NCBI GenBank assembly: GCA_963693365.1
Contig: CAVNZM010000077.1
Coordinates: forward strand, 1-13,534
DNA length: 13,534 bases
Direction: 5' to 3'
Origin: Amoebidium appalachense
Taxonomy: Eukaryota > Protista > Ichthyosporea
The notes below the pieces were generated by a model. It made no database searches, was not told the origin of the DNA, and was given only the letters and a program-made list of their open reading frames with translations. The position numbers were made by a program, and so were the translations under genes. Positions 5,730 through 13,534 of this stretch are shown here, piece by piece; the stretch's first letter is position 1, and each line of letters starts with the position of its first letter.

Positions 5730-6752
5730 TTATTTTTGCAATTTTGGGTCAAAAATAAGTTGCCGCGCTTGCTCCTTCCACCACTCCAGGTGCTCTCCAT
5801 CAGGGTCCAAAAATACATTGTCCTTAGCCAATCGCTCAAGCATACTTCCAAGTGTGCCCCATTGTTCGCGTAGCCAAATGGGAAAAGGCTGAATAGACGA
5901 CCCTTGGTTCACCTTGATTGACATCGATGCAGGCTGGTTGGGGAGCGTGTGAAGAAGAGCCTTACGCGAACCTCGACATTCTATCCACTCGCCTTGGCTG
6001 GCAAGTCGCCGAACCTCAAATTTTACGCCAGTGTCCAGTTTGATCCATCGGAAGCATCGCCATTTTGCGAAGTACGACAGGGGATCGGCGCAAGGGGCTA
6101 ACCACTCTGTGAACTCTGGAATGGCTTGTACATTGTGCACCTCAGGAGGCTCCACCACTCTCCCTCTTTGGCGAATATACGGCGCTAAATCTTTCGATCT
6201 TGGTCGCTTTTTCAAAGTCTCCATCAAATCGGGAACAGTCCGCGGCGGTTGCTCAGTCAGGTAATGGTTGAATCCCCGAAAGCGGCCATCGATATCCTCG
6301 TGCGTATGTCCCGGAAGAAGGAACGAACACTCCACAGTGGTGAACACACCCCTAGAAACGAGTAATTCAAAAAATTGCATCATTGCGTTGCAATGATTCT
6401 CGGAGGCGTTATCCATTTGCACGTACAACGTCTCTGGCAACGAGCCCCGTATCTCCAATTCACGCTCGATTGCCAACGTGAGTGCCGCGATTTGGACATT
6501 GGCACCCTTGCGACCGTGCTCATCCACGATTGTGTAGAGGGTGCGGCCATGAACGAGGACACTGGTTATCCGAACGGCCTTCTTGGGAATCGAGCTCGCG
6601 GCTTTGGAGTTCCAATGTACGTTCGGGATTTCGGATTTTGCTTGGTCCATTGAGTCAACGATGACACTCATGTACTTGTGTGGCTCCCGAATTGCAGCTG
6701 ACCGATGCTGGTAATAGCTCTCTCTCTCCTTTCTGTGACATCTCATGGTCAA
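5730..6752 (-). CDS. Sola-like / DUF7869-type DDD transposase catalytic domain, probably 5'-incomplete
   Basis: 340-codon ORF with motifs VIVDSMDQAK, LYVQMDNASENHCN and SFLLPGHTHEDIDGRF, recognised from memory of this family. No TIR or TSD identified. Confidence 0.75.
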   Translation of the reverse strand: MTMRCHRKERESYYQHRSAAIREPHKYMSVIVDSMDQAKSEIPNVHWNSKAASSIPKKAVRITSVLVHGRTLYTIVDEHGRKGANVQIAALTLAIERELEIRGSLPETLYVQMDNASENHCNAMMQFFELLVSRGVFTTVECSFLLPGHTHEDIDGRFRGFNHYLTEQPPRTVPDLMETLKKRPRSKDLAPYIRQRGRVVEPPEVHNVQAIPEFTEWLAPCADPLSYFAKWRCFRWIKLDTGVKFEVRRLASQGEWIECRGSRKALLHTLPNQPASMSIKVNQGSSIQPFPIWLREQWGTLGSMLERLAKDNVFLDPDGEHLEWWKEQARQLIFDPKLQK

Positions 6753-6782
6753 TCACTATATATATGGTTAGGAGGATCCTAA

Positions 6783-8190: not shown

Positions 8191-8364
8191 AATGAGTTCG
8201 GGGGGCCCAGTCTAGTTATCTCTTCTCGCCCCCTCCTCTCTTCTTCTAGTCTAAGCTTGTGTCACTATATAAGATGAAAATACAAATCCTAAATACAGAA
8301 GATGTCGAAATGTCAAAAATCCGGAAAATCGTCAATTTTGTAATTTTAATAGAGTAGAAATTGG

Positions 8365-8401
8365 GTACCTACGGAAGCCTACGGAACTTTCGCGGTGCTC
8401 C
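8365..8401 (-). mobile_element. 37-bp mitochondrial insertion element, intergenic copy
   Basis: Reverse complement GGAGCACCGCGAAAGTTCCGTAGGCTTCCGTAGGTAC matches the three tRNA-inserted copies. Confidence 0.8.
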
Positions 8402-8470
8402 ATTTTATAATAATCTTAAATTGTAATTCAACTTATTTCTTCAAACAGTAGTAAATCTAGTTCTATTTAA

Positions 8471-8544
8471 TGTAGAGACGGATTACGGTTGATCCATTAG
8501 ACTCATGATCTAATTCCTTGTAGGTTCGACTCCTACCTCTACAA
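8471..8544 (+). tRNA. trnM: tRNA-Met(CAU), possibly initiator
   Basis: Acceptor TGTAGAG/CTCTACA; anticodon arm TTAGA-CTCATGA-TCTAA; T-loop TTCGACT. Confidence 0.9.
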
Positions 8545-8562
8545 CTTTTTTAATTATCATTA

Positions 8563-8635
8563 GCTCATAAAGCTCAATTGGTTGAGCGCAGAATTGAAAA
8601 TTCTGAGGTTCTAGGTTCAAGCCCTTGGATGAGCA
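8563..8635 (+). tRNA. trnF: tRNA-Phe(GAA)
   Basis: Acceptor GCTCAT/ATGAGC; arm CAGAA-TTGAAAA-TTCTG. Confidence 0.9.
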
Positions 8636-8638
8636 CTC

Positions 8639-8711
8639 TGAGAATTAGCCAAGTTGGTAAGGCATTACTTTTTGGTAGTAACAACCGAAGGTTCGAATCC
8701 TTCATTCTCAT
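8639..8711 (+). tRNA. trnQ: tRNA-Gln(UUG)
   Basis: TGAGAAT/ATTCTCA; TTACT-TTTTGGT-AGTAA. Confidence 0.93.
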
Positions 8712-8721
8712 CACTCCAATC

Positions 8722-8794
8722 GTTGATATAGCTCAATGGTTAGAGTTTAGTATTGCAAATACTAATGTTGTAGGTTCAAATCCTACTATCAACT
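8722..8794 (+). tRNA. trnC: tRNA-Cys(GCA)
   Basis: GTTGATA/TATCAAC; TAGTA-TTGCAAA-TACTA. Confidence 0.93.
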
Positions 8795-8810
8795 TTCCTA
8801 ATATTCTCTT

Positions 8811-8882
8811 GCTAGTGTAGCTTAATGGTGAAGCATCTGTCTTGTAAACAGAAGAATGTGGGTTCAAGTCCTACTACTAGCT
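8811..8882 (+). tRNA. trnT: tRNA-Thr(UGU)
   Basis: GCTAGTG/TACTAGC; TCTGT-CTTGTAA-ACAGA. Confidence 0.93.
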
Positions 8883-8886
8883 CTCT

Positions 8887-8959
8887 AGGTATTTAGCTTA
8901 ATTGGCAAAGCATGCAACTAATAATTGCAAGGATGATGGTTCAACTCCTTCAGTACCTA
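8887..8959 (+). tRNA. trnI: tRNA-Ile(AAU)
   Basis: AGGTATT/AGTACCT; TGCAA-CTAATAA-TTGCA. Confidence 0.87.
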
Positions 8960-8963
8960 CCTT

Positions 8964-9036
8964 ATCTCTGTAGCTCAATTGGTAGAGCATTTCACTTCCA
9001 ATGAAATTGTTATGGGTTCAAGTCTCATCTGAGATA
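8964..9036 (+). tRNA. trnG: tRNA-Gly(UCC)
   Basis: ATCTCTG/CTGAGAT (one U-U); TTTCA-CTTCCAA-TGAAA. Confidence 0.9.
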
Positions 9037-9042
9037 CGTTAC

Positions 9043-9151
9043 GAGCATATAACTTAATTATTATAGCATGCAACTAATAATTGCAATAATTATAGTTGGA
9101 GCACCACGAAAGTTCTTTAGATTTCCGTAGGTACCAACTTCTCCGTACCTA
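9043..9151 (+). pseudogene. Chimeric trnA/trnI(AAU) pseudogene with 37-bp insertion in the T-loop
   Basis: 5' end resembles trnA (GAGCATATAACTTAATT), anticodon arm identical to trnI, 3' end GTACCTA as in trnI; acceptor halves do not pair. Confidence 0.8.
9098..9134 (+). mobile_element. 37-bp insertion element in T-loop (TT^CAA)
   Basis: GGAGCACCACGAAAGTTCTTTAGATTTCCGTAGGTAC between GTT and CAACT. Confidence 0.85.
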
Positions 9152-9184
9152 CCTTATCTCTGTAGCTCAATTGGTAGAGCATTT

Positions 9185-9212
9185 GGGACGTCCAGAGTTA
9201 CCACGGCAGGAC
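9185..9212 (+). mobile_element. 28-bp insertion in anticodon stem (TT^CA)
   Basis: GGGACGTCCAGAGTTACCACGGCAGGAC, absent from the intact trnG copy. Confidence 0.75.
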
Positions 9213-9238
9213 CACTTCCAATGAAATTGTTATGGGTT

Positions 9239-9275
9239 GGAGCATCGCGAAAGTTCCATAGGCTTCCGTAGGTAC
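9239..9275 (+). mobile_element. 37-bp insertion element in T-loop (TT^CAA)
   Basis: GGAGCATCGCGAAAGTTCCATAGGCTTCCGTAGGTAC between GGGTT and CAAGT. Confidence 0.88.
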
Positions 9276-9299
9276 CAAGTCTCATCAGAGATACGTTCT

Positions 9300-9372
9300 G
9301 GGCATATAGCTTAATTGGTATAGCATCTGTTTTGCATACAGAAGATTATAGGTTCAAGTCCTATTATGTCCA
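9300..9372 (+). tRNA. trnA: tRNA-Ala(UGC)
   Basis: GGGCATA/TATGTCC with G3:U70; TCTGT-TTTGCAT-ACAGA. Confidence 0.94.
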
Positions 9373-9388
9373 ACTATCAAGATATGAC

Positions 9389-9471
9389 GAAGAAGAGGCG
9401 ATCTGGAAGCAAGCTCTCTTGAAAAGAGTCGCTCTATTGTTGAGTAGTAGGTTCGAATCCTGCCTTCTTCG
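9389..9471 (+). tRNA. trnS: tRNA-Ser(UGA)
   Basis: GAAGAAG/CTTCTTC; GCTCT-CTTGAAA-AGAGT; long variable arm; G discriminator. Confidence 0.88.
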
Positions 9472-9519
9472 ATTTATGTACAACCATCCATAGTAGTATA
9501 CCACAATAAGTTGTCGAGT

Positions 9520-9592
9520 CAGAAAATAGCTCAATTGGTCGAGCACTCGTTTTGGGAACGAGAGGTTATAGGTTCAAGTCCTATTTTTCTGA
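9520..9592 (+). tRNA. trnP: tRNA-Pro(UGG)
   Basis: CAGAAAA/TTTTCTG; CTCGT-TTTGGGA-ACGAG. Confidence 0.94.
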
Positions 9593-9619
9593 TCTAGTGT
9601 CGAATGTGTTACATTAGTA

Positions 9620-9692
9620 TCTTCAGTAGTTCAATAGGTAGATCACTCGTCTGTTAAACGAAGGGTTATAGGTTCGAGTCCTATCTGAAGAG
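9620..9692 (+). tRNA. trnN: tRNA-Asn(GUU)
   Basis: TCTTCAG/CTGAAGA; CTCGT-CTGTTAA-ACGAA. Confidence 0.92.
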
Positions 9693-9707
9693 GTACGAAT
9701 AGAGTCG

Positions 9708-9780
9708 AGGTATTTAGCTCAATTGGTAGAGCATAATCCTTACAAGATTACGGCTGTAGGTTCAAGTCCTGCAATACCTA
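9708..9780 (+). tRNA. trnV: tRNA-Val(UAC)
   Basis: AGGTATT/AATACCT; TAATC-CTTACAA-GATTA. Confidence 0.94.
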
Positions 9781-9794
9781 TTACACCAAAGGTA

Positions 9795-9868
9795 ATTGAT
9801 ATAGCTCAATAGGATAGAGCAGTACACTTCTAATGTACTGGTTGTAGGTTCAAGTCCTACTATCAACT
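9795..9868 (+). tRNA. trnR: tRNA-Arg(UCU)
   Basis: ATTGATA/TATCAAC (A1-C72 mismatch); GTACA-CTTCTAA-TGTAC. Confidence 0.92.
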
Positions 9869-9890
9869 AATTTGAGTACTTAATTAAGAG

Positions 9891-9973
9891 ATCTCTGTGT
9901 CGAAATTGGTAAACGAGTTGTATTAAGGGTGCAATGACGAATAGTCTTATGAGTTCAAGTCTCATCGGAGATA
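9891..9973 (+). tRNA. trnL: tRNA-Leu(AAG)
   Basis: ATCTCTG/CGGAGAT; TTGTA-TTAAGGG-TGCAA; long variable arm; Leu-type D-arm TCGAAATTGGTAAACGA. Confidence 0.88.
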
Positions 9974-9981
9974 GAGTATGA

Positions 9982-10064
9982 AGGATGATGGCTGAGTGGT
10001 CAATAGCGTATCACTGTAAATGATATCCTTTTTAGGTTCGAAGGTTCAAATCCTTCTCATCCTA
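9982..10064 (+). tRNA. trnY: tRNA-Tyr(GUA)
   Basis: AGGATGA/TCATCCT; TATCA-CTGTAAA-TGATA; long variable arm. Confidence 0.94.
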
Positions 10065-10086
10065 TTCTTAATATTGAGACAAATCC

Positions 10087-10220
10087 AAGTGTAACTTGGT
10101 TATTGTGACGATTAGGTACCAAATAACAAAGTGTAACTTGGTTATTGTGACGACTAGGTACCAAATAACAAAGTGTAACTTGGTTATTGTGACGACTAGG
10201 TACCAAATAACCAAGTGTAA
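10087..10220. repeat. 42-bp tandem repeat, 3 copies plus 8 bp, running into the trnH 5' end
   Basis: AAGTGTAACTTGGTTATTGTGACGA(T/C)TAGGTACCAAATAAC(A/C) at 10087, 10129, 10171. Confidence 0.95.
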
Positions 10221-10288
10221 GTAGATCAATTGGTTAGATCATTGATTTGTGGCGTCAAAGGTTAGTGGTTCAATTCCACTCTTACACT
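10215..10288 (+). tRNA. trnH: tRNA-His(GUG)
   Basis: GTGTAAG/CTTACAC; TTGAT-TTGTGGC-GTCAA. Confidence 0.92.
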
Positions 10289-10304
10289 CTTACATTCGAG
10301 TACA

Positions 10305-10385
10305 GAAGAGATTGCTGTTTGGTAAAGCATTCAAATTGCTAATTTGACGCCTTCGGGCTCGTGAGTTCAAGTCTCACTCTCTTCG
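10305..10385 (+). tRNA. trnS: tRNA-Ser(GCU)
   Basis: GAAGAGA/TCTCTTC; TCAAA-TTGCTAA-TTTGA; variable arm GCCTTCGGGC. Confidence 0.92.
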
Positions 10386-10394
10386 AATATTCTA

Positions 10395-10466
10395 GCACCA
10401 TTCGTCTAACGGTTAGGACCTTGATTTTTCATGTCAATAATAGTGGTTCGATTCCACTATGGTGCA
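10395..10466 (+). tRNA. trnE: tRNA-Glu(UUC)
   Basis: GCACCAT/ATGGTGC; TTGAT-TTTTCAT-GTCAA. Confidence 0.94.
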
Positions 10467-10477
10467 TACAAATAATA

Positions 10478-10551
10478 GTTGATATAGTTCAATTGGATAG
10501 AATAGTTGACTACGGATCAATAGGTTGTAGGTTCAAGTCCTACTATCAACT
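10478..10551 (+). tRNA. trnR: tRNA-Arg(ACG)
   Basis: GTTGATA/TATCAAC; GTTGA-CTACGGA-TCAAT. Confidence 0.93.
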
Positions 10552-10605
10552 TACAAACTTAAGATTACTTTAACCACTCTAACTTTTAGGAGAAGAGATA
10601 ACATA

Positions 10606-10714
10606 TCTAGTGTAGCTTAATGGTGAAGCATCTGTCTTGTAAACAGAAGAATGTGGGTTAGAGCACCGCGAAAGTTCCATAGATTTCCGTAGGTACCAAG
10701 TCCTACTGCTAGCT
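10606..10714 (+). pseudogene. trnT: Second trnT(UGU) copy with 37-bp T-loop insertion
   Basis: Matches 8811-8882 apart from the insertion and two acceptor-stem changes (G1>T; TACTAGC>TGCTAGC). Confidence 0.87.
10660..10696 (+). mobile_element. 37-bp insertion element in T-loop (TT^CAA)
   Basis: AGAGCACCGCGAAAGTTCCATAGATTTCCGTAGGTAC between GGGTT and CAAGT. Confidence 0.88.
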
Positions 10715-10718
10715 CTCA

Positions 10719-10791
10719 AGGTATTTAGCTCAATTGGTAGAGCATTAACTTCATACGTTAATTGTTGTAGGTTCAAGTCCTTCAATACCTA
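10719..10791 (+). tRNA. tRNA(CAU), Met or lysidine-modified Ile
   Basis: AGGTATT/AATACCT; TTAAC-TTCATAC-GTTAA. Confidence 0.85.
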
Positions 10792-10809
10792 ACACTCTGT
10801 ATGTTAATA

Positions 10810-10882
10810 AGGTATTTAGCTCAATTGGTAGAGCATGTTCCTCATAAGAATACGGCCGGAGGTTCAAGTCCTTCAATACCTA
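10810..10882 (+). tRNA. trnM: tRNA(CAU), probably elongator Met (or Ile-lysidine)
   Basis: AGGTATT/AATACCT; TGTTC-CTCATAA-GAATA. Confidence 0.88.
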
Positions 10883-10894
10883 TTTGGTTACTTA

Positions 10895-10967
10895 GGGAAT
10901 ATAGCTTAATTGGTAGAGCATTAACTTGTCACGTTAATGGTTCTCGGTTCAAGTCCGGGTATTCTCG
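10895..10967 (+). tRNA. trnD: tRNA-Asp(GUC)
   Basis: GGGAATA/TATTCTC; TTAAC-TTGTCAC-GTTAA; G discriminator. Confidence 0.94.
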
Positions 10968-10997
10968 AGTTTAGTGCCTTAGCTGTTTTACTTTCCA

Positions 10998-11069
10998 AGG
11001 TATTTAGCTCAATGGTAGAGCATTGACCTTTTAAGTCAGTGGCTGTAGGTTCAAATCCTTCAATACCTA
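10998..11069 (+). tRNA. trnK: tRNA-Lys(UUU)
   Basis: AGGTATT/AATACCT; TTGAC-CTTTTAA-GTCAG. Confidence 0.93.
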
Positions 11070-11073
11070 ATTA

Positions 11074-11146
11074 AAGATTGTAGCTCAATCGGTAGAGCAT
11101 AGAACTTCAAATTCTGTGGCTGTGGGTTCAAGTCCTACCAATCTTG
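11074..11146 (+). tRNA. trnW: tRNA-Trp(UCA)
   Basis: AAGATTG/CAATCTT; TAGAA-CTTCAAA-TTCTG; agrees with in-frame TGA codons in nad6. Confidence 0.93.
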
Positions 11147-11181
11147 GAGAGTGCTAGACGTGAATTCTTTCAAGAAGATAG

Positions 11182-11424
<243 letters not shown>

Positions 11425-11446
11425 TGCTCTTACAATCTTACATTCA

Positions 11447-11464
11447 TCTCTCCTCGCTGAGAGA
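11447..11464 (+). other. Short hairpin downstream of atp9 (possible 3' processing signal)
   Basis: TCTCTC-CTCGCT-GAGAGA; similar hairpin after nad6. Confidence 0.35.
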
Positions 11465-11498
11465 CTTTAGCTCATTATTTTATTAGGCAATCTTAAGA

Positions 11499-12131
11499 AT
11501 GGAACAATATTTATTTATGATATTCGGTGGATTAATGTTAATCTCGGGGGCTATGACAATCATAGCCAATAACCCAGTACATTCCGTATTCTATCTTATC
11601 TTTGTATTTGTAAATGCAAGTGCAATGTTAATTTTATTAGATGTGGAATTTTTAGCTATTATTTTTTTAATTGTTTATGTAGGAGCGGTATCTATTCTCT
11701 TCCTATTCGTTGTAATGATGTTCAATATAAAACTCGTTGAGTTAAAAGAAAATACAACTCGATTTATACCTATTGGTATAGTAATTGCTGTTGTATTCCT
11801 CTGACAATCGACTGCTTTATTAGAAAACTTTAGTAATATTAATGCGGTATCTACAGATCCTTGATTTAGTGATACACGTTCTTTATCTTCTCTTATTCCT
11901 TATTGAATTGATTGATCCGTATCTATTCTTTATTCTACTAACATTGAATTATTAGGTCAAGCTCTTTATACTGATTATGCTTTCTATTTCTTATTAGCTG
12001 GTTGTATTCTCTTATTAGCTATGATTGGTGCTATTGTTCTTTCTTTAGATCACCAAAAAGATGTTCGACGACAAAGTTTATATGCTCAAGTAGCTACTAG
12101 TTCCCAATCTCGTTTTTATTCTTCTAATTAA
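11499..12131 (+). CDS. nad6: NADH dehydrogenase subunit 6 (210 aa, TGA=Trp)
   Basis: NPVHSVFYLI, LIVYVGAVSILFLFVVMM, then after TGA read as Trp NIELLGQALYTDY...LLLAMIGAIVL; TAA at 12129-12131. Confidence 0.96.
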
Positions 12132-12148
12132 TACATTATAATAAATTT

Positions 12149-12168
12149 ACCTCTCCTAGTTTAGAGGT
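12149..12168 (+). other. Short hairpin downstream of nad6 (possible 3' processing signal)
   Basis: ACCTCT-CCTAGTTT-AGAGGT; shares CTCTCCT with the atp9 hairpin. Confidence 0.35.
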
Positions 12169-12194
12169 TAGATATCGTATAGGAAAGAAAAATT

Positions 12195-13460
12195 ATGGAA
12201 AAATATCTTTATAAAAATAATAATAATCCTATCTTAGCGATAGTTAATTGAATGGTTGTGCGCTTGGCAGTGCCAAGTTATTTTAGTTATTTATGAAATT
12301 TTGGTTCCTCTTCTGGAATTTGTTTAGTAGTACCAATGTTAATTGGAGTATTTATATCCATACTCCAACCCGGGCATGTTAATTTAACATCCCAAGTAGT
12401 AGTAGTATTAGGAGATCCGGTATTATGATTAATCTGAGGCTTATATGTATATGTAGCCTCGGTGTTCTTCATCCTATTTGGAATAGTAAGGAGATATTAC
12501 AATGAGTTACAAGCCTTTGTAACATCTGCCTTTGAAGATTATAAAGATACGTTCGTATCTTTAATTTATTTATGAGCAGCTTACTTATTATTAGTTGCAT
12601 TAGTTTTATTTACTGTTGGTATCAAATTCTGCGAGAATATTTATCGAACCTATTCTAGGTATAGTCGATTATATTCTACGCTACCAGCACCAGATACTCT
12701 TTATGATAGTGACTATTTTACGTTTGAAAATAAACAGATACACCAAGCCTATTTAATTGGATTACTAGATGCTTGTGGCTGGGTTTCTGTTAGTAAGGAT
12801 AAGAAGGGAGTACAACATGAAATAGGGATGGAATTACCTATAGAAAATGAGGATCTTGTTAAATTATTGCATCAAGCAACTAAAATAGGTACTATAAGTT
12901 ATAAAAGTAATATTTCAGGGTCTCGCACGATACAGTGAAAGATTAGAGATAAAGTACATTTAACTTATCTATCTGTTCTCCTCTATAAGTACCCTTTATT
13001 AACCAGTAAACATTCTGATTTTCAACATTTTATTGACACTATGCATATTAAATCTTACCAGGATCTTCCGGATTATACTCGTCCTTCAAATTCTCACTTG
13101 ACAATCGTAGAAATATTGAGTACTTCGTATTTCAAAGAGTGGCTAGTGGGGTATTTAGAGGTTAAAGCTCGCTTTAAATTCTATAGAATAAATCATCTTA
13201 AGACAGCTAGGTTCGAAATTACTTCTATTACAGATTATAATATATTCGCAGCCATAGCTCATTTCTTAGATTTAAACCATAAAATGAGTCCCGATGCAGG
13301 TTCCTATCAGTTTAGAAGCCATAACATTGGTGTTCTTAAAAAAGTTATCTCTTTCTTTTCTCTCACGTCTGTGTCCATGCTAGGTGCTAACCTATTACAT
13401 TATAAGACATGATTAGCTCACTTACGTGTACTTCCTCATTATCGTAATAAACTATCTTAA
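12195..13460 (+). CDS. 421-aa ORF: degenerate cytochrome b-like N-terminal membrane region fused to a degenerate double-motif LAGLIDADG domain
   Basis: Read codon by codon with TGA=Trp: no TAA/TAG from ATG 12195 to TAA 13458-13460. N-terminus NPILAIVN...SYLWNFGS..GICL; motifs YLIGLLDACG (12750-12779) and WLVGYLEVKA (13140-13169); KYPLLTSK. Confidence 0.88.
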
Positions 13461-13499
13461 TCGCTCCTTGAATCTTGGCTTATTATTTTTGCTTAGTTA

Positions 13500-13534
13500 C
13501 TTTTGATCTTTTCGTTGCTTGCTTTTGATCTTTT
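13500..13534. repeat. CTTTTGATCTTTT direct repeat, 2 copies, at window edge
   Basis: Copies at 13500 and 13522. Confidence 0.6.

What the first reader, a model, noticed from the sequence alone, without database searches (positions are those of the whole stretch)
12195..13460. Heme-less cytochrome b N-terminus fused to a catalytically dead double LAGLIDADG: candidate domesticated membrane-anchored nucleic-acid-binding protein
Seen: 421 open codons. The first ~105 aa follow Cob (NPILAIVN, SYLWNFGS, GICL, ASVFF), but the helix-B heme ligands are gone (RYLHANGASFFF-type reads WGLYVYVASVFF; HIGRGLYY-type reads GIVRRYY), while about three hydrophobic segments remain. Both LAGLIDADG motifs have lost the catalytic acidic residue (LIGLLDACG, LVGYLEVKA). 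Known: intronic maturases are translated in frame with intact upstream cob exons; here the cob part itself has diverged heavily without stops or frameshifts, and no downstream cob exon is visible. Inference: selection keeps a new protein (maturase, DNA tether, or targeting factor for the small elements) rather than a decaying pseudogene.
Basis: partly seen in the sequence, partly recalled or inferred. Interest (0 to 1): 0.82.

Follow-up and report, generated by a model that had tools for sequence, protein, structure and literature searches.

The report
Intron-less dead maturase with cytochrome-b anchor
A mitochondrial chromosome carries a second, heme-less fragment of the cytochrome b gene joined in one open reading frame to an intron enzyme that has lost both its cutting residues and its intron, and it likely survives as a membrane-anchored helper that would assist the splicing of introns elsewhere in the genome.

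Summary
Confirmed. The 421-codon code-4 ORF (12195-13460) is the last gene of a mitochondrial segment (24 tRNAs, atp9, nad6) whose layout suggests an Amoebidium-type linear chromosome (inferred). Residues 9-99 are cob-derived and lack the helix-B histidines. Residues 182-421 are an I-AniI/bI3-family LAGLIDADG lacking three of four catalytic residues, including the E-to-K change of the yeast bI3 maturase. A canonical cob 5' end lies on another contig in all five runs where it is listed, so this is a paralogue. The group I core and the downstream exon, present in most of 64 related loci, are gone, so it cannot be a spliced exon 1. The cob part changes about neutrally at the amino-acid level. Yet the frame stays open (neutral chance 7e-4 or less), helix B became more hydrophobic, and LAGLIDADG changes are conservative. 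Catalytic death alone is ordinary (11 of 44 homologues); the free-standing, anchored arrangement was not found elsewhere. Best reading: a domesticated trans-acting maturase (0.45). No orthologue, target intron or proven expression was obtained.

The parts
12195..13460 (+). Fusion ORF, 421 aa, genetic code 4, ATG to TAA
   Evidence: covered by contigs of X1, X2, X5, X12 with no differing letter listed inside the ORF
12219..12491 (+). cob-derived segment (aa 9-99, helices A and B), heme histidines lost
   Evidence: 17 differences in 124 nt to a canonical cob paralogue contig at 12226-12349
12309..12365 (+). Hydrophobic segment 1 (aa 39-57, cob helix A), KD 2.34
12432..12488 (+). Hydrophobic segment 2 (aa 80-98, cob helix B without His), KD 2.26 against 1.04-1.59 in four intact cob exons
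12492..12737 (+). Middle region aa 100-181 of unresolved origin; holds hydrophobic segment 3 (aa 123-141, 12561-12617); about 55 codons shorter than exon 1 plus intron 5' core in relatives
12738..13457 (+). Double LAGLIDADG domain of the I-AniI/bI3 (cob intron) family, nuclease-dead
12753..12779 (+). Motif 1, LIGLLDACG (catalytic Asp replaced by Cys194)
13143..13169 (+). Motif 2, LVGYLEVKA (catalytic Glu replaced by Lys324, as in bI3)
13497..13534 (.). Start of a 22-nt repeat tract, inferred 3' subterminal repeats; four runs carry one more unit than the window
11499..12131 (+). nad6, upstream neighbour on the same strand
   Evidence: one contig spans 10630-13534 in X2
11200..11424 (+). atp9
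8471..11146 (+). Array of 24 tRNA genes, all on the + strand
8195..8380 (.). High-copy motif shared by many contigs, inferred 5' terminal element of a linear mitochondrial chromosome
   Evidence: summed depth 50,258 in X5 in the first bin, many loose ends; joins from 12191 and 12232 to this motif in X5

Best explanation
The ORF is a free-standing, nuclease-dead copy of the cob-intron LAGLIDADG protein fused to a relaxed copy of the cell's own cob 5' end, and it likely works as a membrane-anchored, trans-acting group I intron maturase. Shown: a second cob 5' end exists elsewhere; the ribozyme core and the 3' exon are absent; three catalytic residues are gone. Inferred history: cob exon 1 plus its intron ORF were duplicated onto the tRNA-atp9-nad6 chromosome, an in-frame loss of about 55 codons removed the 5' ribozyme core, and the cob piece lost cytochrome constraints but kept the start and hydrophobic helices. 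Inferred action: the message needs no splicing, the N-terminal helices would hold the protein at the inner membrane or be clipped off as in intron precursors, and the basic LAGLIDADG domain would bind and fold an intron RNA made from another chromosome, most plausibly the cognate intron of the real cob.
For: Family: best PDB hits are the bI3 maturase, I-AniI and I-HjeMI (E 2e-32 to 3e-31); model pLDDT 94.4 and TM 0.94 to 1p8k (the model rests on the family alignment). bI3 is a pure maturase through the same Glu-to-Lys change (PMC3173205 passage), and maturase function is the published reason why this fold is kept after cleavage decays (PMC2647301 passages). Not spliceable: P, Q, R found upstream in 35, 45, 42 of 55 related loci and S downstream in 39 of 51, none in the window; an intron-core DNA profile scores 67.7-209.2 bits on 12 of 12 held-out loci and 0 on the window; 50 of 51 loci have cob exon 2 downstream. 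Paralogue: a canonical cob 5' end is listed in X1, X2, X5, X12 and X20. Selection after duplication: my hand count on 85 nt gives 6 synonymous and 16 non-synonymous differences (about 0.3 per site each); at a neutral distance of 0.15-0.3 the frame stays stop-free in 7e-4 to 5e-5 of 20,000 simulations. Helix B hydrophobicity exceeds neutral decay (P 0.005-0.024, 4 of 5 proxies usable). The 11 substitutions at columns at least 90% conserved in the LAGLIDADG domain are conservative (mean BLOSUM62 +0.64 against -0.54 to -0.96; P up to 0.027). Net charge +10; Arg411 matches the commonest residue (33 of 42), at a position I recall as RNA-binding in I-AniI. A. parasiticum has at least 21 group I introns (PMC7027106 table).
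Against: No target is shown: whether the real cob carries this intron is unknown. The domain keeps only 18 of 30 highly conserved columns, fewer than any of 32 relatives, including dead ones (25-30 of 30), and its branch is 2.21 against a median of 0.42. Retention in the LAGLIDADG part is not significantly higher than in the cob part (18 of 30 against 15 of 35, Fisher p 0.22). At columns at least 70% conserved the conservative-change signal weakens (P up to 0.195 at distance 0.2). Some conservative changes may predate the fusion. The simulations use fungal-type proxies and an assumed mutation model. Maturases recognise idiosyncratic intron elements (PMC2813881) and are usually assumed to act in cis (PMC8393795). 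A maturase does not obviously need an anchor. No orthologue was found.
Confidence: 0.45

Rival explanations
1. A duplicated cob-exon/intron-ORF relic that is decaying, or is only weakly selected to stay in frame, with no specific function.
For: The cob part changes about neutrally (hand count; 15 of 35 conserved columns kept). The LAGLIDADG part is the most eroded of 33 sequences and a few residues short at the C-terminus. Free LAGLIDADG copies beside partial gene duplications that form pseudogenes are described in Pyronema and Phlebia (PMC7487136 passage). The ORF was picked because it is intact, out of an unknown number of fragments.
Against: Stop-free survival of 7e-4 or less at distance 0.15 or more, before counting frameshifts; the net loss of about 55 codons and two 2-codon gaps are all in frame; hydrophobicity gain and conservative substitutions. 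The published fungal duplicates are 90-100% identical, so recent.
Confidence: 0.25
2. A membrane-anchored DNA-binding protein that tethers, protects or helps partition the many linear mitochondrial chromosomes by binding their shared terminal motifs.
For: bI3 still binds the I-AniI DNA site tightly (PMC3173205). The hydrophobic N-terminus appears selected, which a tether needs more than a maturase does. Several N-domain beta-sheet residues match I-AniI (alignment; the contact list is recalled). A shared high-copy terminal motif exists.
Against: No match to the family's ancestral target in the mitochondrial segment: best 8.8 bits, reached by 2 of 30 shuffles, and it lies inside the ORF. The C-domain beta-sheet is strongly changed. 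No binding data.
Confidence: 0.13
3. A domesticated RNA-binding regulator of translation or RNA stability (for example of cob mRNA at the inner membrane) rather than a splicing factor.
For: Anchor plus basic nucleic-acid-binding fold; the long branch suggests changed specificity; dead LAGLIDADG domains were repurposed in WhiA and OTP51 (PMC3384342, PMC8393795).
Against: No direct evidence; the family's known secondary activity is splicing.
Confidence: 0.12
4. Exon 1 of the working cob (cis- or trans-spliced, or repaired by RNA editing), or only a nuclear pseudogene copy (NUMT).
For: The segment is joined to nuclear-like sequence at about 8190 in this window.
Against: A canonical cob 5' end lies elsewhere; no ribozyme core; contigs of the two RNA-guess runs show no joint and no listed changed letter in the ORF; the neighbouring tRNAs, atp9 and nad6 are intact; in X5 the terminal motif is joined to several other places, as a free end would be.
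Confidence: 0.05

Closest known systems
Yeast bI3 maturase (PDB 2ab5) and I-AniI (PDB 1p8k), cob group I intron proteins
   Same: Same subfamily and fold; same motif-2 Glu-to-Lys change as bI3; translated behind cob N-terminal sequence.
   Different: Those sit inside a spliceable intron of the working cob behind intact exons. Here the ribozyme core and 3' exon are gone, the cob part is a heme-less paralogue, and motif 1 and K227 are also lost.
Free-standing LAGLIDADG genes with partial host-gene duplications in fungal mtDNA (Pyronema atp6, Phlebia cox1; PMC7487136)
   Same: LAGLIDADG gene outside an intron next to a duplicated gene fragment.
   Different: Those copies are 90-100% identical and described as pseudogenes; this one is an old in-frame fusion with signs of selection.
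Free-standing matK and trans-acting MatR/nMAT maturases (PMC8393795)
   Same: Intron-encoded protein kept after leaving or losing its intron and acting in trans (the role inferred here).
   Different: Those are group II reverse-transcriptase maturases without a host-exon membrane anchor.
Domesticated LAGLIDADG proteins WhiA/DUF199, HO, OTP51 (PMC3384342, PMC8393795)
   Same: LAGLIDADG fold reused by the host; WhiA also lacks the catalytic acids.
   Different: Bacterial or nuclear genes with HTH, intein or PPR parts; none is mitochondrially encoded or fused to a cob fragment.

Membership tests
I-AniI/bI3 double LAGLIDADG subfamily | Two LAGLIDADG helices and monomeric alpha-beta fold, closest to cob-intron proteins | tested here: met
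   Pfam PF00961, 2 stretches, E 1.3e-15; PDB E 2e-32; TM 0.94 to 1p8k
Active LAGLIDADG homing endonuclease | Acidic residue at the base of each motif and two catalytic lysines | tested here: not met
   C194, K324 and N399 replace D16, E148 and K227; only K272 (K94) is kept
Group I intron-encoded ORF | P, Q, R elements upstream and S element downstream of the ORF | tested here: not met
   0 of 4 motifs in the window; profile 0 bits against 67.7-209.2 on 12 of 12 held-out loci; no Rfam RF00028 hit
Group I intron-encoded ORF | Downstream cob exon | tested here: not met
   50 of 51 relatives have it; the window runs into repeats, and listed contigs end 51 nt further on; sequence beyond that point was not seen
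Cytochrome b | Four heme-ligand His on helices B and D, eight helices | tested here: not met
   No His in aa 62-182; similarity ends near aa 99
Group I maturase | Binds an intron RNA and stimulates its splicing | not testable with these tools
   Only indirect: family, bI3-type lesion, net charge +10, Arg411
Group I maturase | Cognate intron present in the same genome | not testable with these tools
   No genome held; no paralogue of at least 80% identity over the LAGLIDADG part (flat depth), which cannot exclude a more diverged or ORF-less intron
Domesticated gene under purifying selection | dN/dS below 1 among orthologues | tested here: inconclusive
   No orthologue; simulations favour selection on frame, hydrophobicity and fold
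Amoebidium-type linear mitochondrial chromosome | Shared terminal repeats, 5' and 3' oriented repeats, genes on one strand | tested here: inconclusive
   High-copy 5' motif, 3' repeat tract, all genes on +, matching the description in PMC2518934; right end not in the window; taxon not confirmed by any named hit

The most novel reading that the evidence does not exclude
A homing endonuclease was domesticated into an inner-membrane tether: a heme-less cob fragment anchors a dead LAGLIDADG that binds the shared ends of hundreds of linear mitochondrial chromosomes and so helps keep or partition a highly fragmented genome.
Probability: 0.13. Interest if true: 0.88.

Novelty: new variant of a known kind. 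Interest (0 to 1): 0.56.

Why it matters
It would be a mitochondrially encoded gene born from an exon-plus-intron duplication: the host exon turned into a membrane anchor and the intron protein freed from its intron. That would show a route by which a cis-acting group I maturase becomes a stand-alone trans factor, the step known for group II matK and MatR. It also offers a concrete protein candidate for how an intron-rich or highly fragmented mitochondrial genome is processed or maintained, testable by RNA and DNA binding assays.

Tried and rejected
Expression: no RNA holder listed. Two runs guessed to be RNA (X12, X20; one sample) have contigs over the ORF: X12 12253-13534 at depth 45.5, with nad6 pieces at 5.5-7.9 and the cob paralogue at 87.4; X20 12777-13172 and 13289-13459. 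Contig depth cannot rank genes and the runs may hold DNA, so this is not used as evidence. Copy number: the chromosome's contigs are deeper than the cob paralogue in DNA runs (X1 33.9 against 3.6, X2 14 against 6), also not a measure. Strain dN/dS: no differing letter of the ORF's own contigs is listed inside it. Orthologue searches found none: word-index protein searches (4 cob hits; 0 of 518 candidates), representative search (188 hits, best about 32% identity), metagenome and viral scans with the protein, terminal motif in viral contigs, earlier findings by place and sequence. Origin of aa 100-181: neither the cob profile nor the translated intron-core profile matches. Ancestral target-site scan negative. 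The hairpin upstream of the ATG is not more stable than shuffles (z 0.98). Alignment A5 misplaced the cob fragments and was not used. No model of the N-terminal part was made. In one search the script stopped after one proxy; one search repeated it with 4 of 5 proxies (L040 skipped by the motif filter). The tree places the window on a long branch with two outgroup rows, so its position is not interpreted. The ESM Atlas was not searched. Burger et al. 2003 and the I-AniI structure paper were not held, so the role of I-AniI R239 and the DNA-contact list are recalled.

Full report
Context. The window has two parts. Bases 1 to about 8190 are GC-rich, low-complexity and nuclear-like. From about 8195 the DNA is AT-rich and holds 24 tRNA genes, atp9, nad6 and the ORF in question, all on the + strand. 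Laying public contigs shows that 8200-8380 is shared by very many molecules (summed depth 50,258 in X5) and that X5 joins this motif to 12191 and 12232, as circularised fragments starting at a free end would (inference). The 3' end runs into a 22-nt repeat. This matches the second-hand description of Amoebidium mitochondrial chromosomes (PMC2518934 passages; PMC7027106 passages and Discussion). No named hit confirms the taxon, and no genome is held.

Observation. The ORF is real: 421 codons under table 4, covered by contigs of X1, X2, X5 and X12 with no differing letter listed inside it. Residues 9-99 are cob-like and contain no heme histidine. Residues 182-421 belong to the I-AniI/bI3 subfamily by sequence and by an alignment-driven model (pLDDT 94.4; TM 0.94 to 1p8k). 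D16, E148 and K227 of I-AniI are replaced by Cys, Lys and Asn; K94 is kept. Residues 100-181 match neither a cob profile (120 of 1000 shuffles as high) nor a profile of the translated intron core, so their origin is open.

It is a paralogue, not the working cob. A second contig aligns at 12226-12349 with 17 differences in X2, X5, X12 and X20 (10 differences over a shorter piece in X1). Its flanks read as a canonical cob start and as FLAMHYTAHV, and most listed differences give the residue usual in cob. Of 13 codons with the same residue in 12258-12314 only 1 differs synonymously, so the fusion's cob piece came from this cell's own cob lineage. My hand count over the 85 nt that resolves gives 6 synonymous and 16 non-synonymous differences (roughly 0.31 and 0.25 per site). 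The sample is small, and 7 of the 17 differences were not listed. It says that the cob piece changed about neutrally and sets a rough clock of 0.15-0.3 substitutions per site.

It is no longer an intron. I fetched 64 related loci. P, Q and R elements lie upstream of the LAGLIDADG in 35, 45 and 42 of 55 loci with full flanks, S lies downstream in 39 of 51, and cob exon 2 follows in 50 of 51. The window has none of them. A DNA profile from 33 loci scores 67.7-209.2 bits on 12 of 12 held-out loci and 0 on the window; Rfam also finds no group I intron, though it found one at only 1 of 5 intact loci, so that test is weak. In 19 of 20 relatives 74-86 codons separate exon 1 from motif 1, which would put motif 1 near residue 245; here it is at 189, a net in-frame loss of about 55 codons. 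Contigs of the RNA-guess runs show no joint or edit in the ORF.

What is ordinary. Catalytic death is common in the family: 11 of 44 protein hits with both motifs lost at least one acid and 7 lost both; the motif-2 Glu-to-Lys change occurs in 7 of 49; 5 of 50 stop-free locus ORFs also lost one. bI3 is a pure maturase through this change and still binds DNA (PMC3173205 passage). Fusion of intron ORFs to upstream exons and free-standing LAGLIDADG copies beside pseudogene fragments are known (PMC8393795 passages and section 5.3; PMC7487136 passages).

Evidence for selection. (1) Under a neutral model the frame stays stop-free in 7e-4 (distance 0.15) to 5e-5 (0.3) of 20,000 runs, ignoring indels. 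(2) Helix B is more hydrophobic than in intact cob (2.26 against 1.04-1.59), reached in 0.5-2.4% of neutral runs; helices A and B together in about 0.1% (4 of 5 proxies). (3) The 11 substitutions at LAGLIDADG columns of at least 90% conservation average BLOSUM62 +0.64, against -0.95 for the 19 in the cob part (Mann-Whitney p 0.02) and -0.54 to -0.96 under neutral decay (P up to 0.027). Against: only 18 of 30 such columns are kept, below all 32 relatives; the difference from the cob part (15 of 35) is not significant (p 0.22); the signal weakens at 70% columns; the branch is five times the median; proxies are not the true ancestor; and the ORF was chosen for being intact.

Mechanism. The simplest function for a selected, nuclease-dead member of this subfamily is the one already shown for bI3 and I-AniI: folding an intron RNA (PMC2647301 and PMC2813881 passages). 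With its own intron gone it would have to act in trans, most plausibly on the cognate intron in the real cob, while the cob fragment supplies the start and an anchor. I give this 0.45, a functionless or weakly selected relic 0.25, a DNA tether 0.13, another RNA-regulatory role 0.12, and spliced exon or NUMT-only 0.05. The tether idea gained no support: the family's ancestral target is not present in the segment (2 of 30 shuffles score as high).

Novelty. Nine literature searches and four look-ups in earlier findings returned no description of this ORF or of a free-standing, cob-anchored group I maturase. The library lacks Burger et al. 2003 and most subscription papers, and I read no supplements, so it may already be annotated there as an unnamed ORF; the atp9 of this segment is in NCBI nr. 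PMC3384342 was seen as passages; PMC5808193 and PMC2447202 passages were uninformative. Verdict: a real, unusual gene; new variant of a known kind; function inferred, not shown; interest 0.56.

Noticed in passing
window 9097-9140, 9238-9281, 10659-10702 and inverted 8359-8402: A 37-49 nt element sits at the same T-loop position of duplicated tRNA copies, with an inverted copy in the 5' terminal region; it looks like a small mobile element that inactivates tRNA duplicates.
   Followed up: no
window 8887-8961, 9891-9973, 10477-10552, 11074-11146: tRNAs with A34 anticodons Ile(AAT), Leu(AAG), Arg(ACG); three Met(CAT); the TCA tRNA called SeC is Trp under code 4.
   Followed up: no
window 8471-11146: Other contigs hold diverged, rearranged copies of the tRNA cluster (many joints and variant letters in X12, X2, X5).
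   Followed up: no
window 11216-11307: A variant atp9-like contig with at least 10 differences is listed only for X12: second copy, pseudogene or another organism.
   Followed up: no
window about 8190: Junction of nuclear-like DNA to the mitochondrial segment through (GT)n and poly-G: assembly chimera or whole-chromosome nuclear insertion.
   Followed up: partly
window 12138-12175: Intergenic stretch upstream of the ORF is shared (5 differences in 38 nt) with another contig of 1962 nt; possible repeated processing or expression signal.
   Followed up: partly
window 13499: The window lacks one 22-nt repeat unit that X1, X2, X5 and X12 carry.
   Followed up: no
window 10087-10220: Tandem repeat, 42 nt x 3.2 copies, between tRNA-Tyr and tRNA-His.
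   Followed up: no
window 5730-6755 (-): Nuclear-like ORF matching DUF7869 (E 2.6e-34).
   Followed up: no
window 8200-13534 in run X14: Very deep contigs with nearly all C-to-T or G-to-A changes, as a base-conversion library of unmethylated DNA would give.
   Followed up: no
L003, L014, L019, L021, L029, L064 upstream of the match: Related intron ORFs without the P/Q/R motifs directly upstream but with the S motif downstream; in L003 the upstream frame reads like another endonuclease gene.
   Followed up: no
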